Origin: Patescibacteria group bacterium
GTDB taxonomy: Bacteria > Patescibacteriota > Microgenomatia > UBA1400 > MFAQ01
Direction of reading: 5' to 3'
Assembly (NCBI GenBank): GCA_943355005.1
Contig: CALRDV010000002.1
Span: 131,826-195,825 of the forward strand
DNA: 64,000 nucleotides
Within the stretch, counting starts at the first letter, position 1. Every line of letters begins with the position of its first letter. The notes under the pieces are model-generated. The model was not told the DNA's origin, searched no databases, and worked only from the letters and a program-made list of their open reading frames with translations. The position numbers and the translations under genes are program-made. This document shows positions 10,300 to 41,693 of the stretch, piece by piece.

Positions 10300-10359
10300 C
10301 GTGTGTGCTTATTTTACCATTCCAAGTGCCTCTACTGGTAAAATAACTCTTGATCGTGA

Positions 10360-10441: not shown

Positions 10442-10488
10442 CGCAAATTAAGTCTATTCGCCTTGCGCGAGTAGACTTAAATTTCGTT

Positions 10489-15694: not shown

Positions 15695-16109
15695 GGGGAC
15701 GACAGGATTCGATGGGATAGTACGTTTACAGTTGCAAGCCTCCTTTGGTAATAGGAGTCAAAAAGACCAAAAAATACTTGTCAATAAAGAAGACAAAATA
15801 CTTGGTTTCATCTCTAGTGGAGTTAAATCCCTTTTTGGTGAAGTCAAATCTTCCGCTCCCGTTTACGCTTTTGCCTAAATAGTAGCTTTGAAGACGTCTT
15901 GAGAGCCAGCGGATCCCGGGCTTCTCACAAGGCGAAAAAATACCGGATTGAATGCTTCAGGTTTGATTTAGGCCTGAGGACTAACTTTTCTAAATCGACC
16001 ATAAGGTGTTCTTGTTTGCCTGAAGCTTTATGGAAAATCGGCAAACTACGCTTGTAGACTCTGTAGGCTTAATATTTCAGACGAGAGTTCAATTCTCTCC
16101 GTCTCCACA
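15695..16109 (+). ncRNA. ssrA: tmRNA (SsrA), ~413 nt
   Basis: The 5' end GGGGACGACAGGATTCGATGGGA pairs with the 3' end CGTCTCC-A-CA to form a tRNA-like acceptor stem. The 3' T-arm is GAGAGTTCAATTCTCTC. The internal tag reading frame ends ...SSAPVYAFA followed by TAA TAG. It lies immediately downstream of smpB and is followed by a terminator hairpin. Confidence 0.8.
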
Positions 16110-16113
16110 TAAA

Positions 16114-19024: not shown

Positions 19025-19320
19025 TGCGAGACTCGACTTTAGGTCGGCCGTGGCAATCCCACACCACTGTCATTCCCGACCCGCTTCGCCATAGCTTCAG
19101 CGAGGCGAGCCTGAGTGGGCCGCTGGTACCCGAAGGGGGAAATCCCCCTCCACTCGTCATTGCGAGGAGTGAAACGACGTGGCAATCCCACACCACTGTC
19201 ATTCCCGACCTGATCGGGAATCTATATAGATAAATACCAATTTTTAACACCATGACTACTAGCACTTAGAGTTACGAGTGAGTACGGTTTTTGGCGGGCT
19301 TCGAAACGCGATAAAAAAAT
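19017..19320. repeat. Intergenic cluster of dispersed palindromic repeat elements (composite of at least four repeat types)
   Basis: Two copies of cgtcattgcgag-[hairpin]-gtggcaatccc, two copies of (cac)tgtcattcccgacc(tgatcgggaatc), one copy of gagtgggccgctggtacccgaagggggaaatcc, and one copy of agttacgagtgagtacggtttttggcgggcttcgaaac. The same units recur at more than 15 other places in the window. Confidence 0.8.
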
Positions 19321-21098: not shown

Positions 21099-21524
21099 AT
21101 GATAAAATTACCTTGCATGAAATATCTTTCCCGGCTGCTCGCCGCCACACTTCTATCTTGGTTTTTGCTTTTTCCCACTCTTACACACGCTGCAAGTCTC
21201 AACCTTGTCTCTCCCAGAGGTAACTGTGGAAACAACGAAATTGATACTGCTCTTGGCTGTATTTCCACAGAAGTGGGAACGGGTCCAAACACCTTCTTCA
21301 GTTCCATTATTGGCATCGCAGTCGGACTCGGTGGAGGTCTTGCCCTCCTTCTTATGCTTTATGGGGTCTTTATCGTCACCACCTCTGCCGGCATTCCGGA
21401 CAAGCTCAAGGAAGGCCAAGAAATTATTACCTCCGCCATCTCAGGTCTTATTTTTATCCTTCTCTCCGTCTTTCTCCTCAATTTCATCGGTATCAAAGTT
21501 TTAAGCCTACCTGGTTTACAATAG
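21099..21524 (+). CDS. Small two-TM secreted/membrane protein, putative VirB2/TrbC-like T4SS pilin paralog
   Basis: A classical signal peptide (cleavage near THA-AS), a Cys-containing mature region, and then two hydrophobic helices separated by a short polar loop (IVTTSAGIPDKLKEGQEI). Confidence 0.4.
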   Translation: MIKLPCMKYLSRLLAATLLSWFLLFPTLTHAASLNLVSPRGNCGNNEIDTALGCISTEVGTGPNTFFSSIIGIAVGLGGGLALLLMLYGVFIVTTSAGIPDKLKEGQEIITSAISGLIFILLSVFLLNFIGIKVLSLPGLQ

Positions 21525-21528
21525 AAAT

Positions 21529-21873
21529 ATGTTAAATTTCACCAAACAGGTCTATGCAGCTGCCGGTGGCACAGGAGTTGATATTTCAAGTATGGACAGC
21601 CCCGTCAAAGCCTTGATTCCCAACAATGCCGACCTGGGCAAATTATTCTCTCAACCCCTCCTCCGTTTTGTCTTTGTCGCCGTCGGTCTGGTTTTTATGT
21701 TTAATCTGGTCATGGCCGGCTGGGACCTTATGCTTAGCTCCGGAGATCCAAAGAAAGTTGCCACAGCCACCACCAGAGTCACCAACGGTTTTATGGGAAT
21801 AATTATATCGATGACGGCATATGTAGTTGTCAAAATCATCCTGACATTCTTAGGTCTAGGTACCATCATTTAA
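21529..21873 (+). CDS. Putative VirB2/TrbC-like pilin paralog
   Basis: An N-terminal leader MLNFTKQVYAAAGG, a first TM helix, the loop SSGDPKKVATA, and a second TM helix. This is the same architecture and loop motif as the 24167-26784 array. Confidence 0.5.
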   Translation: MLNFTKQVYAAAGGTGVDISSMDSPVKALIPNNADLGKLFSQPLLRFVFVAVGLVFMFNLVMAGWDLMLSSGDPKKVATATTRVTNGFMGIIISMTAYVVVKIILTFLGLGTII

Positions 21874-24113: not shown

Positions 24114-24166
24114 AAATTAATAAGGATTACGTCATCCTCGACCTGATCGAGGATCCACAAATACAT

Positions 24167-24487
24167 ATGATTATTCGACCAGCCCTGGCAGCCTTAGAAC
24201 CTCTAGAAGGACTTTATGCCCCGGGAAAAGCCATGGGAGGTAGTGGGGCTACTCTATCCACTCTACTAAATCCGCTAATTTATAATTTCCTCATCATCTC
24301 CGGAATTCTTGCTTTCATTGTCATTATTTTCGCCGGTTTTAGCTACATCACCGCTTCAGGGGACAAAGGAAAAATTGAGATGTCCCAGAACATGCTAAAC
24401 TATGGCATACTAGGTTTAATTGTTGTTGTTTTGGCCTTTTTAATTACTCGAGTTATTGGAGCCGTCTTTGGCTTTAAATTCTTTTAA
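24167..24487 (+). CDS. VirB2/TrbC-like pilin paralog 1
   Basis: 106 aa: TM1 (LIYNFLIISGILAFIVIIFAGF), loop TASGDKGKIEMSQN, TM2 (ILGLIVVVLAFLITRVIG). Confidence 0.55.
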   Translation: MIIRPALAALEPLEGLYAPGKAMGGSGATLSTLLNPLIYNFLIISGILAFIVIIFAGFSYITASGDKGKIEMSQNMLNYGILGLIVVVLAFLITRVIGAVFGFKFF

Positions 24488-24493
24488 ATACTT

Positions 24494-24862
24494 ATGATAA
24501 ATAATTTAAAATATTTTACATCTACCGTCTACGCAGCAGCTGGTGATGTCGTAGGAATTATAGATCTACCGGTAGGTGTTCCAAAAGAAGTTGTTCAAAC
24601 TACAGATATTATATCTGCCCTCATCCGCTTTTTAATCGTTATTGCCGGACTTTTCTCTCTTTTTCAATTTATAACCGGAGGTATCGCTTTTATTTCCTCT
24701 GGTGGTGACAAAGGTAAAATCACAGAAGCCCAAAACAAAATTCAAATGAGTATTATTGGACTAGTCATTATTACTGCTAGTTTTATAATCATCGCTCTCG
24801 TCAGTAGAATACTTTTCGGATCTTTTACCGCCATACTCGCACCAAAATTACAATCAATCTAA
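24494..24862 (+). CDS. VirB2/TrbC-like pilin paralog 2
   Basis: Leader MINNLKYFTSTVYAAAGD, TM1, loop SSGGDKGKITEAQ, TM2. Confidence 0.55.
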   Translation: MINNLKYFTSTVYAAAGDVVGIIDLPVGVPKEVVQTTDIISALIRFLIVIAGLFSLFQFITGGIAFISSGGDKGKITEAQNKIQMSIIGLVIITASFIIIALVSRILFGSFTAILAPKLQSI

Positions 24863-24863
24863 A

Positions 24864-25232
24864 ATGTTTAAAATTATATCTCCCATCTATGCATCTAACC
24901 CTATTGATTTAGGAAAGGAAATAGAGGGGTCCGGAGTATACCAAACAGGCATAAGTTCTACTGTTCAAACCAGTTTTGGAGGTTTTATTTCTTCTGTTAT
25001 TACTACACTAACTGTTGTTGGTAGTCTAGCCTTCGTTGTTTACTTTACTGTCGCGGGACTAAAATGGATTAGCGCCGGCGGCGACAAGGGCAAAGTAGCC
25101 GAAGCTCAAACCCAAATGACCCAATCCGCCATCGGCCTAATCGCCATTGTAGCCTCTTACTTTATCATCGGCATTGTCGGTGCCGTCCTTGGTTTAGATA
25201 TTCTCAATCCATTTAAAGCGCTTAAATTTTAA
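24864..25232 (+). CDS. VirB2/TrbC-like pilin paralog 3
   Basis: Leader MFKIISPIYASNP, TM1, loop SAGGDKGKVAEAQ, TM2. It starts 2 nt after paralog 2. Confidence 0.55.
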   Translation: MFKIISPIYASNPIDLGKEIEGSGVYQTGISSTVQTSFGGFISSVITTLTVVGSLAFVVYFTVAGLKWISAGGDKGKVAEAQTQMTQSAIGLIAIVASYFIIGIVGAVLGLDILNPFKALKF

Positions 25233-25236
25233 TAAC

Positions 25237-25590
25237 ATGATCATACAAATAGCCCAACCTGCTCTAGCTGCCGATGAAATAGTAAACAATGCCATCTCTA
25301 GCAAAGTCACCAGTTTAGGTGCGGGTGGAGGTCTAGCTTTTTACATTGCCACTCTCTGGCAAACCGTAATCACCGTAGGAGGCATCGCCTTCATTATTTA
25401 TCTCGTTTGGGGTGGCATAGAGTATCTCACTTCAGGGGGTGACAAGGGTCGGATTGACGATGCTCAGAAAAAAATTACCAGTTCTGTAATCGGTATTGTG
25501 ATCCTTGTTGCTTCCTACTCCATCACCTATTTCATCCAACAGGTCTTCAAGATTAACATTCTCAAACCTGTATTTCCCAACGCACTATGA
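25237..25590 (+). CDS. VirB2/TrbC-like pilin paralog 4
   Basis: Leader MIIQIAQPALAADE, TM1, loop TSGGDKGRIDDAQ, TM2. Confidence 0.55.
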   Translation: MIIQIAQPALAADEIVNNAISSKVTSLGAGGGLAFYIATLWQTVITVGGIAFIIYLVWGGIEYLTSGGDKGRIDDAQKKITSSVIGIVILVASYSITYFIQQVFKINILKPVFPNAL

Positions 25591-25949
25591 TCACAAGTTT
25601 TATTCCCAAAGTATTCGCCGCCGCCGATATAGAACTCCCTATCGGCGACACTGTTACCAAAAATAACTTTTTTGGCTATACATGCATCGGCCATCTCGTT
25701 AGCAACTTAGTTAGCGCCGCTTTTATTATTTCAGGTATCGCTTTCTTTGTTATCTTGGTCATGGGTGGAGTCCAGTGGCTGGTCTCAGGTGGCGACAAGG
25801 GTAAAGTCGAAAGTGCTCAGAAAAGTATTTCTGCAGCTCTCATCGGTTTAGCTATAGTTGCCAGTAGTTACGCTGTTTATATCTTAGTTCTTGAGTTCTT
25901 CGGTATCAATCTCGACGCGCTCTGTACAGCTAACCCACTAGGAAATTGA
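25587..25949 (+). CDS. VirB2/TrbC-like pilin paralog 5
   Basis: Leader MITSFIPKVFAAADI, TM1, loop VSGGDKGKVESAQ, TM2. It overlaps paralog 4 by 4 nt. Confidence 0.55.
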   Translation: MITSFIPKVFAAADIELPIGDTVTKNNFFGYTCIGHLVSNLVSAAFIISGIAFFVILVMGGVQWLVSGGDKGKVESAQKSISAALIGLAIVASSYAVYILVLEFFGINLDALCTANPLGN

Positions 25950-26011
25950 CAAGACTAAAATCATATATAATAGTAAGTATTACGAATATCAATTATTAAA
26001 AAATAAAAAAT

Positions 26012-26353
26012 ATGTCCTTTATTTCCCAAGTCTACGCAGCTACCGGCCAACTAGGAGTTCCCCAACCAACGGGTATGAAAATCACCGATATCGGTGTTCT
26101 TATTAGTCGTGTCATTTCCGTCGCCTTTATTATTGCCGGCATCCTTACCTTCGCTTTCTTAGTCATGGGTGGTATCGAGTGGCTAACTTCAGGTGGAGAC
26201 AAAGGTAAAACCGAAAGCGCCAGAAACCGTATCACTGCCGCTATCGTCGGTCTTGCCATCGTCGCCGCATCATGGGCTCTAATGAAACTCATTGCCTACT
26301 TCTTCGGTGTCGACGTCTTCGAGGGAAACATCAATATCCCTAAACCTTACTAA
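26012..26353 (+). CDS. VirB2/TrbC-like pilin paralog 6
   Basis: Leader MSFISQVYAATGQ, TM1, loop TSGGDKGKTESAR, TM2. Confidence 0.55.
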   Translation: MSFISQVYAATGQLGVPQPTGMKITDIGVLISRVISVAFIIAGILTFAFLVMGGIEWLTSGGDKGKTESARNRITAAIVGLAIVAASWALMKLIAYFFGVDVFEGNINIPKPY

Positions 26354-26372
26354 GCATTTAGGATTAGAAAAT

Positions 26373-26402
26373 AAAAAATCCCGGTTACCCGGGTTTTTTT
26401 AT
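26373..26402 (+). terminator. Rho-independent terminator
   Basis: AAAAAATCCCGGTTACCCGGGTTTTTTTAT: a GC-rich 7-bp stem followed by T7. Confidence 0.7.
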
Positions 26403-26418
26403 AATATATAATCAAATC

Positions 26419-26784
26419 ATGTCATTCCAATTAGTTACACAAGCTTATGCTGCGAGCTGGGCTTCAATTGATCCAGCATGTGTCGGCTCACAAATTGGCT
26501 CTGTAGATGCCAGTGATGTCGTCACCATTGGTGGTATTAAATGTTTAATTGCTAACCTTCTTTCTCCCATTCCTGGACTCATCGCTCTAGTGGCTGTCGG
26601 TGTACTCATCATGGCAGGTATTCGTCTTATGTCTGCCGGAGCCGAGCCCAAAGCCATCGCCAGCGCTTGGAACATGTTCACTTACGCCATCATCGGTCTC
26701 ATTCTTCTTGCAGTAGTTTGGCTAGTTCTTGTAATAATCGAGAACTTCACCGGAGCTCAGGTAACCAAATTCGGAATCCCTTAA
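26419..26784 (+). CDS. VirB2/TrbC-like pilin paralog 7 (divergent)
   Basis: Leader MSFQLVTQAYAASWA, TM1 (LLSPIPGLIALVAVGVLIMAGI), loop SAGAEPKAIASAW, TM2. Its own promoter-like ATAATATATAAT box follows the upstream terminator. Confidence 0.5.
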   Translation: MSFQLVTQAYAASWASIDPACVGSQIGSVDASDVVTIGGIKCLIANLLSPIPGLIALVAVGVLIMAGIRLMSAGAEPKAIASAWNMFTYAIIGLILLAVVWLVLVIIENFTGAQVTKFGIP

Positions 26785-26824: not shown

Positions 26825-29800
26825 GTGAAGAAATCCTTTTTGATAGTTACCGTTACTTTCCTTCTGGCTCTAGTTCTGACTAGTATATCTTTGAATGCAA
26901 AAATAAGTTTTGCCGCCAACCCGGCACCGGAAGCAACACCAACAACAGACCCTAGTACTTCAACATCAGTTGCCGAACAAGCCAACCCCGGTCCACCGAT
27001 AGGTATTCCTTGTGGCAAAACCATGTGTCTCGATAATGAAGTCTGTGTTCAATACAAAGGTGATGTTGATATGCACTGTGCTCCTGCAGTTCCAACCCCT
27101 TCTATTTCAGGACCAACAACACCTACCCCCACCCCATCAGGTGTCATCACCCCCACCACTGCTCCCATTCCCGCTGCCCCTCTTCCTGACAAATGCCCGG
27201 AAGGTACAGGAGTATTTCCTCCAAACGGAAAATGCTACAGCAACATCAAGAGTACTCCCAAAGACCCCAATATTTATGACAAAACTTGTATCTATCAGCC
27301 AGTTGTCCAATACACCGATACTCGTAGTTACAACACCCCAAACAAACAATCCTTTGTTCAATGTGGAAAAGGTGACAGCCCTTTTGGACCTGGTCCTGGT
27401 GGAAAAGACCCAAATTGCGATGTTGCACTTCTAGTAAACACCGATGTCAAACAAGCCGAGCTTGGAAGCTACGGACCCAGTCTTCCTGCTGAATATGTCT
27501 ACTCTCCGGATTTTCTGGCTCAAAATTATCTCTACAATTCTTTATTCGGTCGACCCATGGACTTCTCCAATAGCGGTGAGAATAACGGTGAAGTTCCAAA
27601 CAGGGAAGCTTATCGTACATACTGGCGCCTTATGCCGGCTAGCAACCAAGCCAATCTACGCTCATTTATATTGAATATGGCGAACGATAATCAAATTGAT
27701 AATATCTTTTTTGATTTTACGGATACCAACGGTCTACAGAAAAAAACCGACTTTAAATCCCTCTATAAAGCTTTAGAAAAACAAGTCATCTTATTTTGGA
27801 AGTTCCCTTTCATTAGAGTTGGTTGCCTTATAACCTACCCTGTATGTCCTGAATATGCACAAGCCACAAGAGAATTAAAGCCAGTATTTCAAGATTTATT
27901 CGACACTGCACTTAGACTAGATCTTCCCTTAGCTACCCCCGCAATACAAGCATACAATCTGGCCATCGCAGCTTTTGATAAAGATCTTGACGGTCCATAT
28001 AATGCTTTCGTCCCTTTAGACTTCAACAGTGTTCGAAGTTATATCCTAAAAAAACCGGACGTAAAAGAAAACGATGCATATAAATTCTTCAAATATTTTG
28101 AGCCACTACCTAGATATAAACTCTACAATGTCTCATTCGAACACTTACCTTACGTTGGTGCTATCTACCAAGGATTGCTTTCTCCCAAATTCGGCATGTT
28201 ACCCGCACTTCAACCACAGTGGGTAGTTGATAAATATACTACTCCTGATGGTCTCTCAGACTACAGAATGGGAAACAAGCCCGAAGAACTACCGGAAGTT
28301 GCTATAGCTCACCAGGGATTTATAGATCAGCTAGAAGCCGAAGCCAAAGCAATAATCACCAGTCCTCTTGGGTGGATAGCTGATAAGATTTCAGGAATTT
28401 TCTCAGATGAAAAAACTCTAAAAAAAGGATACATCACAGCAGACAAAGACAAATATACCGATGATGAGCGCATTGGCGAAATCAGAGAGGTCTATACCAA
28501 CCCCGTAGGTTGTCCCCTTCCCCTTAGTTATCATGTCTTAGCTCCCAAAACAGCCGCCAAATCTGTTGACGATCACCATCAAGTAATTATTATTCCCGGA
28601 CAGAGACTTGCTTGGTTCTACACGCCGTCTTGTAGTAATCTCGGGGAAAAATGTTCAGTTGTAGGAGGTAAAACTGTTTGTGTTCCCGCCACTTGCACAG
28701 GAAAAGGTAAATACATTGAAGGAGATCAGTGCTGTGAACCAGCCTGGAGCGTCGAAGCCACCGAAGATGCCAAAGCTTTTGATGTCCTAAACAATCCCAA
28801 ACAGGCCGACATCAGAGAGGCTGTGGCCACCAATCCGGAATACTCCTTTTATACTATGATGTTGCCGGATGGTAAACAGAGTATTCCTGAAGCTTCCATT
28901 GATGCTCCGGTAGCTCATCACATTGCAGTCAAAACCCTGCCCAATGGTAAAGGTGAAGTTCTAAATGAATATGAACCTATAAACCGCATCAGCAATGGAG
29001 CCCAAGACTCAATACATTACCTTCAAAACTGCTGGACTGTCCCAGGGAGTCTTCAAAACTCACCCAGATGCAGTCTTACAATAGCCTCAGCTTCCGCATG
29101 CGCCGAACCCCCTGTTTTTACCCCAGATCCTAGCTGTAAAATTAAAAACAACACTCTCAAACTCCCAGACTCTTTAGTAAAAGCAATCGAAGCCGCAGCG
29201 ACCGCCTTCAAAGTTCCTCCTAGTTTAATTATTGGCTTATTCTATGGTGAAGGAGCTTTTAACCCTGGTTCCAAATACTTGCAAGAAGACTTTGTCTCCC
29301 AAAATCTTGCTGCGTGCACCGTAATCCCAGGTTGCAATCCTAGTGCAAATTCGATAAATTCCATTGTCCAGTATCCATCAATCTGGCTGAAACCATATGT
29401 AGACGCAGTCAAAGTCTTTGATCCGGCTCGAAAACCAAATTTATGTAATCTTTTGGATGGCATTTTTGCTATGACCAAAGGAATCGCTCAAACACAGTAT
29501 GGCAATCCTCTCTTTACCGGAAAAACTTGTTTCAATATTCCATTAAACAATGGCTCAGCCAAATCATCAGGCACCTGTTCTTGGGACGAAAGAAATGTCG
29601 AAACCGCTATTCGTGTTTGGGAACTAGGTACTACTTATTCCGAAGGCAATAGTTGTCTTACCAAGGCCGGGAGCTGTCTTACCGGTGGCGGTTACGCAGC
29701 ACAGTGTCCCACAGGAGGAGATACATGCGAAACCAAAGATAGGAGATATTCTCAAGCCAGTCATAACGGCTGTGTTTACGACATTTACAAAGAAAACTAA
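26825..29800 (+). CDS. Large secreted Cys-rich protein (~991 aa) with Pro/Thr-rich linker. Hypothetical, co-located with the pilin array.
   Basis: A signal peptide/anchor (LIVTVTFLLALVLTSISLNA) and a PT-rich low-complexity segment (PTPSISGPTTPTPTPSGVITPTTAPIPAAP). It has numerous Cys residues spread over the length and no ATPase or enzymatic motif I can recognise with confidence. Confidence 0.5.
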   Translation: MKKSFLIVTVTFLLALVLTSISLNAKISFAANPAPEATPTTDPSTSTSVAEQANPGPPIGIPCGKTMCLDNEVCVQYKGDVDMHCAPAVPTPSISGPTTPTPTPSGVITPTTAPIPAAPLPDKCPEGTGVFPPNGKCYSNIKSTPKDPNIYDKTCIYQPVVQYTDTRSYNTPNKQSFVQCGKGDSPFGPGPGGKDPNCDVALLVNTDVKQAELGSYGPSLPAEYVYSPDFLAQNYLYNSLFGRPMDFSNSGENNGEVPNREAYRTYWRLMPASNQANLRSFILNMANDNQIDNIFFDFTDTNGLQKKTDFKSLYKALEKQVILFWKFPFIRVGCLITYPVCPEYAQATRELKPVFQDLFDTALRLDLPLATPAIQAYNLAIAAFDKDLDGPYNAFVPLDFNSVRSYILKKPDVKENDAYKFFKYFEPLPRYKLYNVSFEHLPYVGAIYQGLLSPKFGMLPALQPQWVVDKYTTPDGLSDYRMGNKPEELPEVAIAHQGFIDQLEAEAKAIITSPLGWIADKISGIFSDEKTLKKGYITADKDKYTDDERIGEIREVYTNPVGCPLPLSYHVLAPKTAAKSVDDHHQVIIIPGQRLAWFYTPSCSNLGEKCSVVGGKTVCVPATCTGKGKYIEGDQCCEPAWSVEATEDAKAFDVLNNPKQADIREAVATNPEYSFYTMMLPDGKQSIPEASIDAPVAHHIAVKTLPNGKGEVLNEYEPINRISNGAQDSIHYLQNCWTVPGSLQNSPRCSLTIASASACAEPPVFTPDPSCKIKNNTLKLPDSLVKAIEAAATAFKVPPSLIIGLFYGEGAFNPGSKYLQEDFVSQNLAACTVIPGCNPSANSINSIVQYPSIWLKPYVDAVKVFDPARKPNLCNLLDGIFAMTKGIAQTQYGNPLFTGKTCFNIPLNNGSAKSSGTCSWDERNVETAIRVWELGTTYSEGNSCLTKAGSCLTGGGYAAQCPTGGDTCETKDRRYSQASHNGCVYDIYKEN

Positions 29801-29827: not shown

Positions 29828-31570
29828 TTGACTATGCGACGACTTCAAAAACACCTCAGCCTCATTCTTTTGTTTATTTTTGTATCAATTTCAGTAACTC
29901 TTGCACCAATTACCAGCGCCGCCTCAGGCCCCACTCTCAAAGAAAATCTTTTTGGGCAAGACAACCTTAAAGCTCCCCAAGACTACATAAAGGAATATTG
30001 TGACAAAAGATCGGGTGACCTTATGAATTTAGAAACTTGGTACTCTGGAAAATGTTCTCCAGGAATAGATTCCATGAGTGGTGATGGTGTTGGATTTGCC
30101 GACATAGTGATACTACAGGGTTTGGAATGGTTGTATGGACCACAATACAGTTCTTTTTTAGACAGTCTTATAAAATCTCTAAAATTTATTGAGTCGATAA
30201 AGTCCAAAGCAATATCTGGAGAAATAAAACCAAGTGAAATTGCGTTTGTAGATATGGGTAACATAGGGCTGGTTGGTTCCCTTGGTCGTATAACTACCGG
30301 GCTGGCCAGTGTCAGACCTGCCAGTTCCATGGATTACTTAGCTTATGTCTCCACAAACCTAAAACAACACAAAATCATACCCGATACTTACGCAGCCGGT
30401 CCAGGATATGGATACTCAGCACTAGCACCAATCCTTCCACTCTGGAGAGCTTTTAGAAACATTTCATATCTTATGTTTGCTTTCGCTTTTGTTCTTTATG
30501 GAATGATGATTATGTTTAGAGTCAGAATCGATTCCAAAACCGCAGCTACTATTCAGCTCGCTATTCCAAAATTGATAGCTACTTTAATAATGATTACATT
30601 TTCTTACGCTATTGTTGGATTGCTTGTTGACCTCTCCACTGTGGCCACAGCTATGAGCATAAATATTCTAAAAGCAGGCGGTATTTTAACCTCCTCAGGA
30701 GTAGGAGAGTTCATTCCGCTTGTTGTAAGTGGCCAATCAATATTTGGAGCAATTGGCTCCTTCATTGTTAACACGATAGTAGCAATATTGGTTTCTCCAT
30801 TTATTTTTTTCAATCTTATGGTAGGCGGTTTACTAGGCATAGTTGTAGCCGGCGCAACAGCAATCGTTACAACCTTTGTTCCTTATATAAATGGTATTGG
30901 TCTATTCGTAGGATCACTAATCTTATTCGGAGTCATCATTTCATACGTAAGACTAATAGGTAAACTTTTCCAAGCTTTTATAAGCATTATCGTAAATCTT
31001 ATTTTCGCTCCGATAATATTACTCGGGAATCTATTACCAGGATCAACATCTTTTAGTGATTGGTTAAAAAGTATTTATGGTAATCTAGCTGTCTTCCCTG
31101 TTGCCTGCTTTTTCTTAACCCTTTCTTATGCTCTTATGTGTCAACCCATCCTATCTATTATTGGAAACTTTGGTAGCAGTATTCCCGGCATAAGCCGAGG
31201 ATTTCTTGAATCACTTTTAGGTGTCAACTCACTCTCAACACTAGGAAACATTTGGACACCACCGATGACGATACCTGGTGGAGGAGCAATAGTTAGTGCA
31301 GGAGGAGGCGGATTGGGTAATTTGACAGGTAGTGCTGGAAGCCTAATGCTTGCCACCATCGGCTTTGGACTACTACTTATGTCCAGTAAATATGTCGAAA
31401 TGGTTGAGAAAGCTCTCAAAACTCCTCCATTCCCATACGGAGCTGCCATTGGTGAAGCTCTAAAATCAGGACTAAAACAATCAACTGAACTTGCAAACAG
31501 GAGACCTGGTCCGTCTGTAGCAAAGGATACAGCAAATGTCTTAAACAAAGTGGTTGAGGTAACAAAATAA
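29828..31570 (+). CDS. Polytopic membrane protein, putative VirB6/TrbL-like T4SS channel component
   Basis: 580 aa: a signal anchor, a ~200-aa extracytoplasmic domain, then at least 7 TM helices (FAFAFVLYGMMIMF, LIATLIMITFSYAIVGLLV, FIVNTIVAILVSPFIFFNLMVGGLLGIVVAG, and others). The assignment rests mainly on topology and gene context. Confidence 0.4.
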   Translation: MTMRRLQKHLSLILLFIFVSISVTLAPITSAASGPTLKENLFGQDNLKAPQDYIKEYCDKRSGDLMNLETWYSGKCSPGIDSMSGDGVGFADIVILQGLEWLYGPQYSSFLDSLIKSLKFIESIKSKAISGEIKPSEIAFVDMGNIGLVGSLGRITTGLASVRPASSMDYLAYVSTNLKQHKIIPDTYAAGPGYGYSALAPILPLWRAFRNISYLMFAFAFVLYGMMIMFRVRIDSKTAATIQLAIPKLIATLIMITFSYAIVGLLVDLSTVATAMSINILKAGGILTSSGVGEFIPLVVSGQSIFGAIGSFIVNTIVAILVSPFIFFNLMVGGLLGIVVAGATAIVTTFVPYINGIGLFVGSLILFGVIISYVRLIGKLFQAFISIIVNLIFAPIILLGNLLPGSTSFSDWLKSIYGNLAVFPVACFFLTLSYALMCQPILSIIGNFGSSIPGISRGFLESLLGVNSLSTLGNIWTPPMTIPGGGAIVSAGGGGLGNLTGSAGSLMLATIGFGLLLMSSKYVEMVEKALKTPPFPYGAAIGEALKSGLKQSTELANRRPGPSVAKDTANVLNKVVEVTK

Positions 31571-38080: not shown

Positions 38081-39136
38081 ATGGCTATTCAACAGCATCC
38101 ACTACCACAGGACATTAGCTCCTATCGCTTCCGCCTAATTGGCGATATGACTATCAAGCAGTTTGCCTCTCTTGGCATCTGTATTGTTTTAGCCATTATT
38201 GCGTACAGTATGCCCCTCCCTTTCTTTTTTAAATACCCTTTAGCCTTTATGTTTATCGTACTAGGCGTAGGTATGGCTTTTGTCCCCGTTCAAGGACGTT
38301 CTCTGGATGTTTGGATTCTTGCTTTTATCCGTTCCATTTATTCTCCGACTCAATATACATGGAAACGTTCTGAAGAAACTGTTTCAAATGAAATGTCTAT
38401 GAAGAGTAATGGAGTGGGTACTCAAGCAGTTACAAACGCCAGAATCGAACTCACCCAAGCTCCCGCTTCAGTCCCCAATACTCCATCTGTCTCCATCACC
38501 CCTCCTGCATCAGAGCCAAAAACAGAAGAGAGACTCGAAATAACTCCTCCACCATCCGTCATTGCGAACCCGCCTTCAGAGGGTGTGGCAATCCAGGCTA
38601 CAAATCAAACCGAAGTCCCAGTTCCTGAATTAGGAAAAATTATAACTTCCTTAGCCCCAGTAATACCTACCGAGCCGGAAAAACCCACCCAACCAATAAC
38701 ACTTACTGTCATTCCGGGCTTGACCCGGAATCCATCTGGTACATCAGACGCCCAATCGACACCATCCGTCATTGCGAGAGACCTACCCGCTGTGGAAGGA
38801 GCACGGCAATCTAGTTTACCAGCCACCCCATCAACTAACCCTCCCCAGCAAACCCAGCTCCCCATCCCCTACACCCCCACTACCCCAAACACTCTCGTTG
38901 GACTTACGTTGTCTCCGGAAGGTAAAATTTTGGACGGGGTCATGGTAGAAATTCAGAGAAACGGTCTAACTTCCAGAGCCACCAAAAGTAACAAACTTGG
39001 CCAATTTATGTTCGCCAGACCTTTGGAAAATGGCTTGTATCAAATCCTCGCCGAAAAAGATTCTTTTACCTTTTCACCATACTCTTTAGATCTTACCGGC
39101 ACTATTATCCGACCTCTTAAAATCCAAGCACAATAA
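38081..39136 (+). CDS. PrgI/VirB3-like membrane protein with C-terminal carboxypeptidase-regulatory-like domain. It contains in-frame palindromic repeat insertions.
   Basis: The N-terminus (YRFRLIGDMTIKQFASLGICIVLAIIAYSMP ... AFMFIVLGVGMAFVP) has the two-TM PrgI-like pattern. The C-terminus (LTLSPEGKILDGVMVEIQRNGLTSRATKSNKLGQFMFARPLENGLYQILAEKDSFTF) resembles a CarboxypepD_reg beta-sandwich. The central Pro/Thr linker includes VIPGLTRNPSGTS and PSVIARDLP, which are encoded by copies of the dispersed repeats. Confidence 0.45.
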   Translation: MAIQQHPLPQDISSYRFRLIGDMTIKQFASLGICIVLAIIAYSMPLPFFFKYPLAFMFIVLGVGMAFVPVQGRSLDVWILAFIRSIYSPTQYTWKRSEETVSNEMSMKSNGVGTQAVTNARIELTQAPASVPNTPSVSITPPASEPKTEERLEITPPPSVIANPPSEGVAIQATNQTEVPVPELGKIITSLAPVIPTEPEKPTQPITLTVIPGLTRNPSGTSDAQSTPSVIARDLPAVEGARQSSLPATPSTNPPQQTQLPIPYTPTTPNTLVGLTLSPEGKILDGVMVEIQRNGLTSRATKSNKLGQFMFARPLENGLYQILAEKDSFTFSPYSLDLTGTIIRPLKIQAQ

Positions 39137-39138
39137 TC

Positions 39139-39789
39139 ATGGCAGACAACGTTAAATCCTCCACCCAAGAAAGCCTCGATATTTACACTATCAAAAACCA
39201 TTTGGTTTTTCTCAAAGATGGTTCTTGTTCTCTGGTACTAAAAACTACCGCTATCAACTTCAATTTATTATCTGAAGAAGAACAAGACGCCACTATTTAT
39301 GGCTACGCCGGATTACTCAACTCTCTCTCATTTTCTATTCAAATCCTTGTTCGATCTCAACGAAAGAATATTTCCGATTATATAAATCTTCTGGATACCC
39401 GTATTCAAAGTACTCCTTCCCAAAAAGTCAAAGAACAGCTTCTTTCCTATCGTCAATTTGTAAAATCTCTAGTTAAAGAAAATCGCGTTTTGGAGAAAAA
39501 GTTCTATATTATTATTTCTTTCTCTGCTGTTGAGCTTGGAGTTACTAAATCAACCTTTAATCCGTTTGCCAAAACTCCCCAAAAACCTCCTTTTGATATC
39601 GAATATATTGAAGAAAAAGCCTCCATGGCTCTCTATCCTCGACGCGACCACATCATCCGACAATTTGCCAGAATTGGTCTCAAGGCAAGCCAACTCACCA
39701 CCAGCGAACTCGTCACACTCTTCTATACTATTTACAATCCTGGTAGCGTCACCCAACAAATCACTCCGGGTAAATCCGTCGCCTCCTAA
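39139..39789 (+). CDS. Hypothetical protein, possibly a separately encoded VirB4 N-terminal-like domain
   Basis: 216 aa, translationally coupled with both neighbours. Weak resemblance to T4SS ATPase N-terminal domains (LVFLKDGSCSLVLKTTAINFNLLSEEEQDA). Confidence 0.35.
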   Translation: MADNVKSSTQESLDIYTIKNHLVFLKDGSCSLVLKTTAINFNLLSEEEQDATIYGYAGLLNSLSFSIQILVRSQRKNISDYINLLDTRIQSTPSQKVKEQLLSYRQFVKSLVKENRVLEKKFYIIISFSAVELGVTKSTFNPFAKTPQKPPFDIEYIEEKASMALYPRRDHIIRQFARIGLKASQLTTSELVTLFYTIYNPGSVTQQITPGKSVAS

Positions 39790-39818
39790 ATCTTCTTTTC
39801 TTAAGTTATACTTAAAGC

Positions 39819-41693
39819 ATGGCTCTGAATCTATTTTCTCTTGGCAAAAAAGCCGCTCCGACAACAGCTGTTGAATCAACGGTACCAGCCAACACGCCTC
39901 CTCATAACTCCAACACTTCGGGGTTAAAGTCCACCGCTTCTAGCCAGTCAGTTCAAGATATTATTGCTCCATCGGCTGTCGAAGTAGATTTTTCTTTTAT
40001 CAAAATAGATGATAACTACGTCCGAACTCTTTTTGTCACTGGCTACCCGCGTTACGTTTCGGCTAATTGGCTCTCCCCCCTGATCAATTTCAACCACTCC
40101 TTGGATATTTCCATGTTTGTTTACCCCTCCGACTCCAAAGATACTTTAGATAGTCTCAGGCGACGCATTGCCGAAATGGAAGCAGAAATAAATACTGATA
40201 TCGAACGAGGTCGTATCCCCCGCGCTGCCACCGAAGCCGGATTAGAAGACGCCAAGGTTCTCCAATCTCAACTTGTTAAAGGAGCAGAAAGATTTTTTCA
40301 ATTCTCTTTGTATATCAGCATCTCCGGAGACTCAGTCAAAGAGCTAGACACTGTTACTGCTCAAGTTCAATCCATGTTGGCTTCCCTCCTTATCATCAGC
40401 AAGGTCGCCTCTTTATCTATGGAGGATGCTTTCAAAACCACTTTGCCGTATTGCAAAGATAAATTAATGTTAACTCGGAACATGGATACCACAGCCCTCT
40501 CTACTACTTTTCCATTTACATCTTCTGAACTCTCTGATAATCAAGGTATTCTTTACGGCGTCAACGCTCATAATGATTCTCTCGTAATTTTTGATCGCTT
40601 CTCTCTTGAGAATGCCAATATGCTCATACTCGCCACTTCCGGTGCCGGTAAGTCTTATGCAGTAAAGCTCGAAATTCTTCGTTCTCTTATGTTCGACTGC
40701 CAAGTTATTATTCTAGACCCGGAAAACGAATACGAAATGGTCACCAAATCTGTCGGTGGCAACTATCTCTCTTTCTCCACCGGTGCTACTCACAAAATTA
40801 ACCCCTTCCAAATCGCCAGACCACAAGATAGCAGTGAAGATGAGATGGGTTACAAATATCTTTTCCTTATGTCGCTTCTAAAAATCATGATTGGTGTCAT
40901 GGATCCTATTGAAGAAGCCACTATGAACCGCGCTTTAGTTCTCACTTATCGTCAGAAGGGCATTTCGGAAGATCCAACTACTCACATTCTGGAGGCACCC
41001 AGAATGGAAGATCTTTATCGTGCTCTTATCGGCATGGAAGAAAGTGTTTCCAAGACTTTAGCTGCCAGACTAGAAAGATATGTCATGGGTGGTGTAAAAG
41101 GTATTTTTGATCAGCAAAGCAATATCGACATCAATGCTCCCGTCACCGTTTTTACTTTAAGGGACACTGCCGACGAAATTCGCCCTATTATCATGTTTAT
41201 GATTCTAGACTTTGTTTGGAACCAAGTCCGCAAAGACTTACGCAAAAGAATTCTCGTTGTCGATGAGGCTTGGTACCTCATGAGATACGAAGATTCCGCC
41301 AAAATTCTTCAGGGTTTTGTCAAACGCGCACGTAAATATTACTTTGGTGTATCTATCATTTCTCAGAACGTCGACGACTTTCTTGGTTCAGCTTACGGCA
41401 AAGCTATTATTACCAACTCTGCCCTCAAACTCCTCCTTAAACAATCCTCAGCTGCCATCAATCAGATCTCTGAAGTCTTCTATCTCTCTCAAGGAGAGAA
41501 ACAACTTCTTCTCTCTGCTGGCCAAGGTGAAGGTATTTTCTTCGCCGGTATGAATCACGTAGCTATCAAAATTATTTCCTCTGCCGACGAACATGCACTT
41601 GCTACCAGTAAACCGGCCGAAATTCTCGAAGCCAGAAAGAAAGAAAAAGAAGCTCGAGAAGCTGAAATCGCAGCCGATAAAGCCAACACCTAA
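39819..41693 (+). CDS. VirB4/TrbE/CagE-family T4SS ATPase
   Basis: Walker A NMLILATSGAGKSYAV, Walker B RILVVDEAWYLM, and an N-terminal YVRTLFVTGYPRYVSANWL segment typical of the VirB4 family. 624 aa. Confidence 0.75.
   Translation: MALNLFSLGKKAAPTTAVESTVPANTPPHNSNTSGLKSTASSQSVQDIIAPSAVEVDFSFIKIDDNYVRTLFVTGYPRYVSANWLSPLINFNHSLDISMFVYPSDSKDTLDSLRRRIAEMEAEINTDIERGRIPRAATEAGLEDAKVLQSQLVKGAERFFQFSLYISISGDSVKELDTVTAQVQSMLASLLIISKVASLSMEDAFKTTLPYCKDKLMLTRNMDTTALSTTFPFTSSELSDNQGILYGVNAHNDSLVIFDRFSLENANMLILATSGAGKSYAVKLEILRSLMFDCQVIILDPENEYEMVTKSVGGNYLSFSTGATHKINPFQIARPQDSSEDEMGYKYLFLMSLLKIMIGVMDPIEEATMNRALVLTYRQKGISEDPTTHILEAPRMEDLYRALIGMEESVSKTLAARLERYVMGGVKGIFDQQSNIDINAPVTVFTLRDTADEIRPIIMFMILDFVWNQVRKDLRKRILVVDEAWYLMRYEDSAKILQGFVKRARKYYFGVSIISQNVDDFLGSAYGKAIITNSALKLLLKQSSAAINQISEVFYLSQGEKQLLLSAGQGEGIFFAGMNHVAIKIISSADEHALATSKPAEILEARKKEKEAREAEIAADKANT

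What the first reader, a model, noticed from the sequence alone, without database searches (positions are those of the whole stretch)
24167..26784. Tandem array of seven divergent pilin-like paralogs with a conserved loop motif and a conserved short N-terminal leader ending in YAAA/FAAA
Seven consecutive ORFs of 106-122 aa share one architecture. There is a short N-terminal leader, a first hydrophobic helix, a polar loop with the near-invariant motif (S/T/A)(S/A)GGDKGK(I/V/T)xxAQ, and a second hydrophobic helix. The most divergent copy has SAGAEPKAIASAW instead. The two pilin-like ORFs at 21099-21873 have related loops, SAGIPDKLKEGQ and SSGDPKKVATA.

The N-termini upstream of the motif are the most variable parts, as expected for surface-exposed segments under diversifying selection. 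Six of the genes begin with a 10-15 aa leader ending in V/I-Y/F-A-A/S-A/T/N: VYAAAGD, IYASNPI, PALAADE, VFAAADI, VYAATGQ, AYAASWA. The ORF at 21529 has VYAAAGG. This leader is too short to be a canonical Sec signal peptide. It suggests a dedicated leader-processing step. Some genes overlap or abut by 2-4 nt, which implies translational coupling.
Basis: seen in the sequence. Interest (0 to 1): 0.8.

Follow-up and report, generated by a model that had tools for sequence, protein, structure and literature searches.

The report
Pilin gene array of CPR secretion system

Summary
Seven back-to-back ORFs (24167-26784, +) and two more (21099-21873) encode 106-141 aa proteins with two transmembrane helices. 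All nine hit Pfam PF18895 (T4SS_pilin). The window looks like a Ca. Collierbacteria (Microgenomates/CPR) chromosome near dnaA, and it also carries PrgI/VirB3-like, TrsD-like, VirB4 and M23 hydrolase genes.

The kind is already published. 441 VirB2-like arrays of 2-11 genes, about 25% identical, were reported in Patescibacteria, mostly Microgenomates and Saccharibacteria. A related array is essential in Southlakia.

Three points go beyond the papers I read:
- The nine paralogs are ancient, position-specific orthogroups. Their order is kept in 63 of 71 related loci. This argues against a recently amplified variation array.
- The short YAA leader has the same position and motif as the cleavage region of ordinary signal peptides. 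Orthologs carry a full Sec signal, a 6-13 aa stump or no leader, all ending at the same A-x-A|A/Q site before the same mature N-terminus. A dedicated processing enzyme is not needed.
- Elsewhere in CPR, 2-16 pilin modules are fused into one protein.

Diversifying selection is not shown. Sequence homology to VirB2/TrbC or F-pilin was not detected. Cleavage and pilus formation are inferred, not shown.

The parts
21099..21524 (+). W1: pilin-like paralog with a full-length Sec-type signal peptide (MIKLPCMKYLSRLLAATLLSWFLLFPTLTHA|AS) and a Cys-containing N-terminal domain
   Evidence: PF18895 E=1.3e-4, 22.4 bits, below the 26.6 cut-off. Two TM segments. Orthologs sit at the same position in Collierbacteria loci.
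21529..21873 (+). W2: pilin-like paralog; short leader MLNFTKQVYA|AAGG
   Evidence: PF18895 26.0 bits; two TM segments; collinear orthologs.
24131..24154 (+). 8-bp hairpin element GTC-ATCCTCGA-CCTGA-TCGAGGAT, 13 nt upstream of the W3 start codon; its right arm holds the only Shine-Dalgarno-like GAGGA in the array
   Evidence: One of 5 copies in the window (shuffles expect 0.01). This copy carries two compensatory stem changes. Function unknown.
24167..24487 (+). W3: first gene of the tandem array; leader MIIRPALA|A; loop TASGDKGK
   Evidence: PF18895 E=6.4e-10, 39.4 bits. 100% identical to database protein P0051, from a 255-kb contig.
24494..24862 (+). W4: leader MINNLKYFTSTVYA|AAGD; loop SSGGDKGK
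   Evidence: PF18895 20.5 bits, below the cut-off. Membership rests on the alignment and on collinear orthologs of 53-74% identity. The in-frame stop lies 2 codons upstream of the ATG.
24864..25232 (+). W5: leader MFKIISPIYA|SNPI; loop SAGGDKGK
   Evidence: PF18895 E=9.2e-7; identical to P0001.
25237..25590 (+). W6: leader MIIQIAQPALA|ADEIVNNAIS; loop TSGGDKGR; overlaps W7 by 4 nt (ATGA)
   Evidence: PF18895 E=5.9e-8. Orthologs begin MIKPAFA|ANEIVNNALS, MLLA|QNEIINKALS or leaderless MPNEIINKAIS.
25587..25949 (+). W7: leader MITSFIPKVFA|AADI; loop VSGGDKGK; one conserved Cys in the N-terminal tail and one in the C-terminal tail
   Evidence: PF18895 E=7.1e-8. 51% identical to W8. The Cys pair is kept in nearly all listed orthologs.
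25946..25974 (+). Promoter-like site TTGACA-17-AATAGT in the 62-nt spacer before W8
   Evidence: Consensus scan only; not evidence of function.
26012..26353 (+). W8: most conserved paralog and candidate major subunit (an inference); leader MSFISQVYA|ATGQ; loop TSGGDKGK
   Evidence: PF18895 E=1e-8. Orthologs are 67-92% identical in Collierbacteria. Lowest pN of all paralogs. Leader codons 2-9 have pN 0.14 against pS 0.63. AlphaFold model shows a helical hairpin, pLDDT 73.
26380..26403 (+). Terminator-like hairpin CCCGGTTACCCGGG followed by a T-run, just after W8
   Evidence: and visible in the sequence.
26419..26784 (+). W9: most divergent copy; leader MSFQLVTQAYA|ASWA; loop SAGAEPKA; conserved Trp and Cys residues in the N-terminal tail
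   Evidence: PF18895 E=9.1e-9. Leaderless orthologs start MQWGAEC or MPWSSEC, that is, at the predicted mature N-terminus.
26825..29800 (+). 991-aa secreted protein with an ordinary signal peptide (…KISFA|ANP); family unknown; follows the array
   Evidence: No Pfam, NCBIfam or PDB sequence hit. A large ORF follows the array in many related loci.
29828..31570 (+). 580-aa polytopic membrane protein; position fits a VirB6-like channel subunit, but this is unverified
   Evidence: Hydrophobic sequence. No family hit. The VirB6-like role is inferred from position only.
38081..39136 (+). PrgI (VirB3-like) protein
   Evidence: PF12666 PrgI E=6.6e-8.
39139..39789 (+). TrsD-like protein / N-terminal piece of VirB4
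   Evidence: NF041427 TrsD E=2.4e-6; matches residues 113-234 of the Mbov_0397 VirB4 model.
39819..41693 (+). VirB4-like ATPase of the monoderm conjugation type
   Evidence: NF045971 CD1110 family, 355 bits against a cut-off of 325. PF19044 and PF12846 hits.
41696..44695 (+). 999-aa M23 peptidoglycan endopeptidase, the candidate cell-wall hydrolase of the system
   Evidence: PF01551 E=4e-17.

Best explanation
This is the pilin gene set of the chromosomal, origin-proximal, monoderm-type type IV secretion system of a Ca. Collierbacteria-like CPR bacterium.

- **The proteins.** Nine ancient, non-redundant paralogs of Pfam family PF18895 (two upstream plus seven in tandem) each encode a small hairpin of two transmembrane helices. 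The helices are joined by a short loop carrying Lys/Arg (GGDKGK). The N-tail and C-tail face outward.
- **Topology and assembly (inferred).** The hairpins insert into the cell membrane. The VirB4/PrgI machine encoded 11-15 kb downstream then assembles them, together rather than as alternatives, into a heteromeric pilus-like or conduit structure used in the epibiotic lifestyle.
- **The leader.** The 8-14 aa leader M-x(1-5)-[LFI]-[IV]-x-x-[AV]-[YLF]-A|A is a shortened Sec-type signal peptide. It has lost most of its n-region and h-region. It has kept the c-region and the signal peptidase I (A-x-A) site.
- **Processing (inferred).** The general signal peptidase removes the leader, not a dedicated enzyme. 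The first transmembrane helix, not the leader, drives translocation of the short N-tail.
For: **Family and context**
- All nine ORFs hit PF18895, six above the gathering score.
- Each has two TM segments. The AlphaFold model is a hairpin.
- PrgI, TrsD-like, VirB4 (CD1110 family) and M23 hydrolase genes lie in the window. dnaN and dnaA are about 20 kb away.
- Close homologs come from Collierbacteria MAGs.
- The published description of Patescibacteria VirB2-like arrays matches: 2-11 genes, about 25% identity, abundant in Microgenomates (PMC12102498). The pilin cluster in Southlakia is essential.

**Ancient, non-redundant paralogs**
- Orthologs are 42-92% identical, against 20-29% between paralogs. 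The exception is W7/W8 at 51%.
- The exact order W1..W9 is found in 17 of 30 loci with at least 9 pilin ORFs. W4<W5<W6<W8 is kept in 63 of 71 loci, against 7.5% after shuffling.
- Fused proteins with 2-16 modules exist.

**Leader**
- The motif is exclusive to W2-W9 among the window's ORFs.
- Pooled over 149 Collierbacteria orthologs, position -1 is Ala in 77%, -3 is A/V in 69%, and -2 is Y/L/F in 75%.
- Conservation is at the peptide level: W8 leader pN 0.14 against pS 0.63.
- Among 60 anchored W8-type orthologs, about 24 have canonical 22-28 aa signals (for example MKKLATLANSAALTLALATPALA|QNIGVG) and 35 have 6-13 aa stumps (MSLISQVYA|AAGTIGV, MLLSPVFA|QAKIEI). Both end at the same A-x-A|Q/A site before the same mature sequence.
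- Leaderless orthologs start at that same point (W6, W7-like and W9 groups).
- Other secreted proteins in the window have normal-length signals with the same style of site.
Against: - No experiment here shows cleavage, a pilus or the topology.
- A leader whose hydrophobic part is only 4-7 residues cannot span a membrane. It may therefore be a poor signal peptidase I substrate.
- The loop charge bias is modest: 26 positive and 21 negative residues in the loops, against 11 and 24 in the N-tails.
- The signal peptidase gene is not in the window, so its presence in this genome was not checked.
- Fold searches returned only generic helical hairpins.
- Profile comparisons found no homology to proven pilins VirB2/TrbC or TraA. 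'Pilin' therefore rests on the Pfam family name, the architecture and the genomic context.
- The 580-aa neighbour could not be confirmed as VirB6.
- Collinearity in distant Microgenomates is only partial: W3 and W7 are not resolved by best hits.
Confidence: 0.7

Rival explanations
1. The array is a variation device. The paralogs are interchangeable alternative pilins, used one or a few at a time. Their exposed N-termini are under diversifying selection to match different host strains or to evade recognition, as proposed for Bartonella and Anaplasma VirB2 paralogs and suggested for CPR in PMC12102498.
For: - Paralogs differ most in the N-terminal tail.
- That tail evolves about twice as fast as the core among orthologs: pN 0.33-0.38 against 0.17-0.21.
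- W8 and W9 have their own spacers. W8 has a promoter-like site and a terminator, so differential expression is possible.
- The published suggestion is quoted.
Against: - Each paralog has a position-specific ortholog of 42-92% identity in every complete Collierbacteria locus, and the order is kept in 63 of 71 loci. The copies are therefore old and individually maintained, not recently amplified or homogenised.
- pN stays below pS in every region.
- Fusions of several modules into one polypeptide imply joint use.
- The pilin cluster is reported essential in Southlakia.
Confidence: 0.15
2. The short leader is recognised by a dedicated enzyme, for example a TraF-like or S26-like pilin peptidase that also cyclises the pilin, or a prepilin-type peptidase.
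For: - The leader is too short for Sec targeting.
- It is confined to these proteins.
- It is under purifying selection in W8.
- From my own knowledge: T- and P-type pilins are processed by more than one enzyme, and cyclic pilins exist. An H-pilus paper on this was listed but not read.
Against: - No peptidase domain other than M23 was found among the window's ORFs.
- The site matches the general -3/-1 rule.
- The site aligns with the cleavage site of ordinary Sec signals in orthologs.
- There is no Gly at -1 or Glu at +5, as type IV prepilins have.
- Leaderless orthologs exist, so the leader is dispensable.
Confidence: 0.08
3. The leader is not removed at all. The conserved hydrophobic-x-x-YAA segment stays as the N-terminus of the mature protein, for example as a small interfacial anchor or packing element. 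Alternatively it is conserved for translation initiation.
For: - A 6-13 aa leader cannot place the site in the signal peptidase active site in the usual way.
- Some stumps are only 4-6 aa, such as MLLA|Q and MFALLA|Q.
- No Shine-Dalgarno sequences precede the genes, so the 5' coding region might matter for initiation.
Against: - In orthologs with full-length signals the same motif lies upstream of the cut and would be discarded. It therefore cannot be a required part of the mature protein there.
- Synonymous sites in the W8 leader vary freely (pS 0.63), so conservation is not at the RNA level.
- Leaderless orthologs begin at the predicted +1 position.
Confidence: 0.2
4. The proteins are not subunits of an extracellular filament. 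They are membrane-embedded hairpins that form a heteromeric ring or channel within the secretion machine, comparable in build to rotor c-rings, where hairpins are also found fused.
For: - Poly-hairpin fusions of 2-16 modules behind a single signal peptide are hard to fit into a helical pilus.
- The set of paralogs is fixed and ordered.
- No homology to proven pilins was detected.
- Gram-positive-type T4SSs normally lack pili, as the literature quoted states.
Against: - The architecture matches conjugative pilins in outline: a leader ending in A-x-A|Q/A and two hydrophobic helices.
- The N-tails are conserved within orthogroups but vary between them, and carry Cys residues. This suggests exposed, interacting surfaces.
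- Nothing in the data tests localisation.
Confidence: 0.2

Closest known systems
VirB2-like pilin arrays of Patescibacteria T4SS (Quinonero-Coronel et al. 2025, PMC12102498; the essential Southlakia epibionticum pilin cluster, Wang et al. 2023, PMC10633639; the TM7x 'secreted protein array', McLean et al. 2020, PMC7427843)
   Same: - Same Pfam family (PF18895).
- Tandem divergent copies of about 25% identity.
- Same companions (VirB4, TrsD, PrgI).
- Chromosomal and near dnaA.
- Taxon is Microgenomates, where such arrays were reported as especially abundant.
   Different: - Here the layout is fixed at 2+7, with uppS and a polyprenyl synthase gene in between.
- The leaders are 8-14 aa stumps rather than the predicted Sec signals described for TM7x.
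- The published papers I read do not discuss position-specific orthology, leader truncation or fused modules.
- Nothing here is experimentally tested.
Mbov_0395 family pilin-like conjugal transfer protein of Mycoplasma ICEs (NCBIfam NF045849)
   Same: - Small two-helix membrane protein of a monoderm VirB4 system.
- Seven of the nine paralogs give sub-threshold hits, E from 2.5e-6 to 1.6e-2.
- The neighbouring VirB4 and TrsD-like proteins also match the Mycoplasma ICE models.
   Different: - Scores of 15-27 bits lie below the 40-bit cut-off, so the paralogs are not members of that equivalog.
- From my own knowledge, not tested here: ICEs are mobile elements with a relaxase, and I expect them to carry a single such gene rather than nine.
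VirB2/TrbC conjugative pilins of diderm T4SS (Pfam PF04956; Agrobacterium T-pilin)
   Same: - General build: a leader ending in A-x-A|Q (VirB2 alignment: PAAA|Q, PAFA|Q).
- Two hydrophobic helices, and a small size of about 70 aa for the mature protein.
   Different: - No detectable sequence homology: Pfam E=0.24 at best and hhalign probability 0.2%.
- VirB2 leaders run about 40-50 aa.
- From my own knowledge: VirB2 and TrbC are cyclised and work in a double-membrane envelope.
F-pilin TraA (PF05513)
   Same: Two-helix pilin made as a precursor and cut at A-M-A|A. The only hhalign match was VYAA to AMAA at that site. It spans 4 columns and is not significant.
   Different: - No homology detected.
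- The leader is 51 aa.
- From my own knowledge: F-pilin is N-acetylated and needs TraQ and TraX.
VirB2 paralog arrays of Bartonella and Anaplasma (as cited in PMC12102498)
   Same: Several divergent pilin genes lie side by side in a T4SS locus.
   Different: Those arrays are interpreted as antigenic or host-range variation. Here the copies are old, ordered orthogroups kept across a whole class.

Membership tests
Pfam PF18895 T4SS_pilin | Score at or above the curated gathering cut-off (26.6 bits) | tested here: met
   W3 39.4, W5 29.3, W6 33.1, W7 32.8, W8 35.6 and W9 35.7 bits. W4 (20.5), W1 (22.4) and W2 (26.0) fall just below but have E <= 5e-4. Database copies carry a precomputed PF18895 hit.
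Pfam PF18895 T4SS_pilin | About 70-residue hairpin of two hydrophobic helices | tested here: met
   Exactly two hydrophobic 19-mers in each protein. AlphaFold helices 24-59 and 64-98, with pLDDT 82-93 in the core.
Patescibacteria VirB2-like pilin array (PMC12102498) | 2-11 pilin genes in tandem or separated by non-pilin genes, with low mutual identity (mean about 25%, maximum 54%) | tested here: met
   7 + 2 genes; 20-29% identity to W3; W7/W8 51%.
Patescibacteria VirB2-like pilin array (PMC12102498) | Encoded near virB4 and other MPF_FATA-type components, without a relaxase | tested here: met
   PrgI, TrsD-like, VirB4 (CD1110 family) and M23 hydrolase lie 11-15 kb downstream. No relaxase or coupling-protein domain was found among the window ORFs scanned. 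The rest of the genome was not seen.
VirB2/TrbC pilins (Pfam PF04956) | Significant match to the family profile or to family members | tested here: not met
   Best Pfam E=0.24 (W6 only). hhalign of a 42-sequence alignment against 7 annotated VirB2/TrbC proteins gave probability 0.2%.
VirB2/TrbC pilins (Pfam PF04956) | Long (about 35-50 aa) signal peptide removed by signal peptidase I, followed by head-to-tail cyclisation | not testable with these tools
   Leaders of W2-W9 are 8-14 aa, so the length criterion is not met. Processing and cyclisation need protein chemistry.
NCBIfam NF045849 Mbov_0395 pilin-like conjugal transfer protein | Score at or above 40 bits | tested here: not met
   The best score is 27.1 bits, for W3.
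Sec-type signal peptide cleaved by signal peptidase I | Positively charged n-region and a hydrophobic h-region of at least 7-8 residues or more | tested here: not met
   W2-W9 have at most 4-7 partly hydrophobic residues before the site, and the highest 8-residue hydropathy is 0.85-1.55. W1 and the neighbouring secreted proteins do have full signals.
Sec-type signal peptide cleaved by signal peptidase I | Small or neutral residues at -3 and -1 (the A-x-A rule), aligned with the cleavage region of full-length signals in orthologs | tested here: met
   Position -1 is Ala in 77% and -3 is A/V in 69% of 149 orthologs. The site aligns with ...TPALA|Q and ...TPAFA|V in long-leader orthologs.
Sec-type signal peptide cleaved by signal peptidase I | Actual cleavage at that site | not testable with these tools
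   Needs N-terminal sequencing or mass spectrometry.
Type IV pilus prepilins (class III signal peptides) | Gly at -1, a hydrophobic helix starting at +1, and Glu at +5 | tested here: not met
   Position -1 is Ala. A polar tail of 21-35 aa follows the site before the first helix.

The most novel reading that the evidence does not exclude
The nine hairpin proteins are obligate partners of one heteromeric structure with a fixed composition, a mixed pilus or a membrane ring. Two lines of evidence point this way: their class-wide conserved gene order, and the fusion of 2-16 modules into single proteins in other CPR lineages. They reach the membrane without a functional Sec signal. Their signal peptides have repeatedly decayed to stumps or to nothing, while the cleavage site is kept wherever a stump remains. 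That would make this family a natural series showing how a cleavable signal peptide becomes dispensable for small hairpin proteins. It would also be a secretion-system 'pilus' built on a different principle from the homopolymeric VirB2 or TraA pili.
Probability: 0.3. Interest if true: 0.55.

Novelty: new member of a known kind. Interest (0 to 1): 0.3.

Why it matters
[quoted passage not shown] Its pilin cluster is the feature that sets it apart from Gram-positive conjugation systems. What the many pilin copies are for is still open.

**What this locus adds.**
- The copies are old and ordered, each individually conserved, and elsewhere they are even fused. This favours a heteromeric assembly over host-range variation, and the idea can be tested in Southlakia.
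- The leader series (full signal, stump, none) gives a simple experimental handle on how these proteins are inserted and processed.

**Limits.** The array itself, its family and its context are already in the literature and in Pfam. The finding is mainly a well-behaved new example.

Tried and rejected
- **PDB sequence search** with the paralog profile returned nothing relevant.
- **hhalign** against F TraA and against seven VirB2/TrbC proteins fetched from plasmids found no homology.
- **The search for related loci with all nine paralogs** failed because no stretch was conserved enough. It was repeated with five.
- **All-against-all BLAST** timed out and was replaced by window-against-all.
- **A heuristic three-way leader classifier** over all 596 pilin ORFs was noisy, because the TM1 start was misplaced and longest-ORF extensions interfered. 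I use it only for examples and rely on the anchored W8 set.
- **dN/dS.** Synonymous sites are saturated (pS about 0.7), so only relative pN is meaningful. An earlier unaligned N-tail figure is invalid and is not used.
- **Pfam, NCBIfam and PDB searches** of the 991-, 580-, 958-, 533- and 340-aa neighbours gave nothing.
- **Considered and rejected:**
  - An alternative genetic code or missed upstream starts as the cause of the short leaders.
  - A type IV prepilin signal (motif absent).
  - Mere chance for the leader motif.

Full report
**1. What is in the sequence**

The seven ORFs lie exactly at the stated coordinates, all on the + strand, and encode 106-122 aa. I call them W3-W9. The two ORFs at 21099-21873 are W1 and W2. 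The spacings within the array are 6, 1, 4, -4, 62 and 65 nt, so W3-W7 are tightly packed. W8 and W9 each follow an AT-rich spacer. A TTGACA-17-AATAGT site precedes W8, and a GC hairpin with a T-run follows it.

The nine proteins align with 20-29% identity to W3. They share the loop (S/T/A)(S/A)GGDKG(K/R), with minor deviations. Each has exactly two hydrophobic 19-mers.

The leader motif is present in all of W2-W9. [AVI][YFLHM]A[AS] ending at residues 6-16 occurs in 8 of the window's 76 ORFs of at least 100 aa, and those 8 are W2-W9. The N-termini cannot be longer. W4 and W8 have in-frame stops 2 and 4 codons upstream, and the others have no start codon further up.

**2. Family and surroundings**

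All nine proteins hit Pfam PF18895 (T4SS_pilin), six of them above the curated cut-off. Seven give sub-threshold hits to the Mycoplasma ICE pilin-like family NF045849.

The window also encodes:
- a PrgI/VirB3-like protein (38081-39136);
- a TrsD-like protein (39139-39789);
- a VirB4 ATPase of the CD1110 family (39819-41693, 355 bits against a cut-off of 325);
- a 999-aa M23 peptidoglycan hydrolase.

Directly after the array come a 991-aa secreted protein and a 580-aa polytopic membrane protein. Neither hits any family, so the VirB6-like role of the latter is only a guess from its position.

dnaN, dnaA, rnpA and yidC lie at 45.8-52 kb, so the system sits next to the replication origin genes. 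Close homologs and syntenic loci come from Ca. Collierbacteria and other Microgenomates MAGs. W3 is identical to a database protein from a 255-kb contig.

**3. What is already known**

- Quinonero-Coronel et al. (PMC12102498) searched 3,035 Patescibacteria genomes with PF18895 and PF04956, among other profiles. [quoted passage not shown] Mean identity was 25% and the maximum 54%. The arrays were often near virB4 and near dnaA.
- Wang et al. 2023 found the pilin series in the Southlakia T4SS cluster to be essential.
- McLean et al. 2020 had described the same array in TM7x as small proteins with Sec signal peptides.

So the array, its family and its context are a known kind. This locus is a new example from the lineage where such arrays are commonest.

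**4. The paralogs are old and ordered**

I fetched 80 related loci, called ORFs and searched them with an HMM of the nine paralogs. The loci hold on average 7.6 pilin ORFs and at most 11. The '2 upstream + 7 tandem' layout recurs.

I assigned each ORF to its best window paralog.
- The order W1 W2 … W3-W9 appears in every complete Collierbacteria locus. Ortholog identity is 42-92%, against 20-29% between paralogs.
- The exact order holds in 17 of 30 loci with at least nine pilin ORFs.
- W4<W5<W6<W8 is kept in 63 of 71 loci with at least six, against 7.5% after shuffling labels.
- In distant Microgenomates, W3 and W7 are not resolved by best hit.

The copies therefore predate much of the Microgenomates radiation and are individually maintained. 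The papers I read do not address this.

**5. The leader**

Pooled over 149 Collierbacteria orthologs of W2-W9, the consensus is [L/F/I][I/V][K/S/P][Q/S/P/T][A/V][Y/L/F]A|A. Position -1 is Ala in 77% and -3 is A/V in 69%. This is the -3/-1 pattern of signal peptidase I sites (established knowledge).

In W8 the leader is conserved at the peptide level while synonymous sites vary freely: pN 0.14 against pS 0.63 over codons 2-9 in 19 genomes.

The decisive comparison is across lineages. Among 60 W8-type orthologs that could be anchored on the conserved KITDIG motif:
- about 24 have an ordinary signal peptide, for example MKKLATLANSAALTLALATPALA|QNIGVG… or MKKFAPLASLAGLAAAITPAFA|VDGV…;
- 35 have a 6-13 aa stump, for example MSLISQVYA|AAGTIGV…, MFALLA|QSRP… or MLLSPVFA|QAKIEI…;
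- both classes have the same A-x-A|Q/A site and the same distance to the anchor.

Other orthogroups show all three states.
- The W7-like group has MKKILTRLSTFTFLLLTSTPVALA|AGGSFAINVDD, MNFTNFQLVPQAHA|QAGSFSVNVGD and the leaderless MAPGSFSVNISD.
- W6 has MIIQIAQPALA|ADEIVNNAIS, MIKPAFA|ANEIVNNALS, MLLA|QNEIINKALS and the leaderless MPNEIINKAIS.
- W9 has MSFQLVSQAYA|A..W..C against the leaderless MQWGAEC.

What is conserved is the mature N-terminus. The leader is a signal peptide that has lost its n-region and h-region to varying degrees and kept its c-region. W1 and the neighbouring secreted proteins of this genome have normal-length signals ending in the same style of site: THA|A, SFA|A, TSA|A.

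No peptidase other than M23 was found among the window's ORFs. Cleavage by the general signal peptidase is therefore the economical inference, but it is not shown. A stump this short may be a poor substrate. Translocation of the 21-35 aa N-tail is then presumably driven by the first transmembrane helix. yidC is present in the window, which is noted but proves nothing.

**6. Selection**

In codon alignments of Collierbacteria orthologs the non-synonymous differences per region are:

| Region | pN |
|---|---|
| Leader | 0.38 |
| N-tail | 0.33 |
| TM1 | 0.21 |
| Loop | 0.19 |
| TM2 | 0.17 |
| C-tail | 0.21 |

Synonymous differences are saturated at about 0.7. The outward-facing N-terminal part evolves about twice as fast as the core but shows no excess of non-synonymous change. 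With saturated dS, positive selection at individual sites can be neither shown nor excluded. W8 is the most constrained paralog. It also has its own promoter-like site and terminator, so I suggest, as an inference only, that it is the major subunit.

**7. Relation to proven pilins**

The AlphaFold model of W8 is a helical hairpin (helices 24-59 and 64-98) with a disordered N-terminus. It was built from 42 sequences and has pLDDT 73 overall and 82-93 in the core.

- The profile finds nothing in PDB sequences.
- hhalign against F TraA aligns only VYAA with AMAA, the TraA cleavage site. The match spans 4 columns and is not significant.
- hhalign against seven annotated VirB2/TrbC proteins taken from plasmids gives probability 0.2%.
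- The VirB2 alignment does show the same style of leader end, PAAA|Q and PAFA|Q.

So these proteins work like, and are built like, conjugative pilins. Membership is shown only for PF18895, not for VirB2/TrbC.

**8. Fused modules**

A full HMMER search of 1.84 billion representatives found 88,796 proteins at E <= 1e-3. The top 150 all carry 2-16 pilin modules in one polypeptide.

The sequences are continuous, without Met-leader restarts. P0121, for example, has one ordinary signal peptide followed by six hairpins. It lies inside a pilin array on its contig, and the DNA translates to it. Another fused protein comes from Ca. Andersenbacteria.

Fusion implies that several hairpins act together. 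That fits a heteromeric assembly. It also raises the question of whether the structure is a filament at all.

**9. Verdict**

The pilin-family reading is right at the level of PF18895 and of the CPR type IV secretion system.

The most likely mechanism is as follows. The nine ancient, non-redundant hairpin proteins insert N-out/C-out. The general signal peptidase trims them at a vestigial A-x-A site. The VirB4 machine then co-assembles them into a heteromeric pilus-like or channel structure. Shown here: family, context, orthology, and the leader's position and motif match to signal peptides. Inferred: topology, cleavage, assembly and role.

The locus is a new member of a known kind. Three modest points may be new: ordered orthogroups, decaying signal peptides and fused modules.

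Noticed in passing
window 19198-19221, 24131-24154, 49245-49268, 60231-60254, 60418-60441 (all + strand): A small hairpin element, GTC-ATTCCCGA-CCTGA-TCGGGAAT, occurs five times in intergenic DNA, where shuffles expect 0.01. The copy 13 nt upstream of the first array gene has two compensatory stem changes (ATCCTCGA…TCGAGGAT), so the hairpin itself seems to be selected. Among the 89 fetched loci it appears only once, in L018 at 10390-10413 between the W8 and W9 orthologs.
   Followed up: partly
window 19049-19081 and 19178-19210: A perfect 33-nt direct repeat with 129-nt spacing lies in the spacer between the bPH-domain gene and the SpoIID-like gene. Its 3' end overlaps the hairpin element above. 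Rfam has no match there.
   Followed up: partly
proteins P0121-P0270; locus L082 1777-3435: Many family members elsewhere in CPR are single polypeptides with 2-16 pilin hairpin modules. P0150, for example, is 1775 aa with 16 modules. P0121 has one signal peptide plus 6 modules and lies within an array of single pilins.
   Followed up: partly
window 25587-25949 (W7), 26419-26784 (W9), 21099-21524 (W1): W7 orthologs keep one Cys in the N-terminal tail (FFGYTCIGH) and one in the C-terminal tail (LDALCTxNPLG). Both tails are predicted to face outward, so a disulfide could tie them together, loosely recalling cyclic pilins. W9 and W1 keep Cys pairs within the N-terminal tail. This was not tested.
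   Followed up: no
window 6917-10444: A dense tRNA cluster holds five tRNA-Ser and two tRNA-Arg genes. A 166-aa ORF inside it (8807-9307, minus strand) gives a borderline VirB3 hit: PF05101, 23.4 bits against a cut-off of 23.9. It would be a second VirB3-like gene, far from the main cluster.
   Followed up: no
window 15695-16110 and 14890-15327: A tmRNA encodes an unusually long predicted tag of 32 aa ending in …APVYAFA. smpB lies next to it.
   Followed up: no
window 41696-44695: The 999-aa M23 hydrolase of the T4SS cluster carries, near its N-terminus (residues 94-172), a domain matching the C-terminal domain of ribosomal protein bL25/TL5 (PF14693, E=1e-11). The genuine bL25 gene is at 57258-57944.
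   Followed up: no
window 39139-41693: VirB4 appears split. A 216-aa TrsD-like ORF matches the N-terminal part of monoderm VirB4 models, and the 624-aa ATPase follows 29 nt later.
   Followed up: no
window 24140-26420 (upstream of each array gene): None of W4-W9 has a recognisable Shine-Dalgarno sequence in the 25 nt before its ATG. The only GAGGA lies in the hairpin before W3.
   Followed up: no
whole window: GC skew is negative in every 2-kb bin, ranging from about -0.005 to -0.41. The cumulative skew falls steadily with no sign change around dnaA and dnaN at 46-49 kb, and it flattens only at 54-58 kb.
   Followed up: no
loci L033, L035, L040, L043, L051-L053, L055: In several Woesebacteria-like loci, the large ORF of about 900-985 aa that follows the array also scores against the pilin HMM. 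This suggests a pilin-like module fused to the big downstream protein. The window's 991-aa protein does not score.
   Followed up: no
window 2458-2811 (minus) and 53793-54233: A holin-family protein (PF04020, E=4e-32) and an RNase H / RVT_3 protein are encoded in the window. Neither has an evident link to the array.
   Followed up: no
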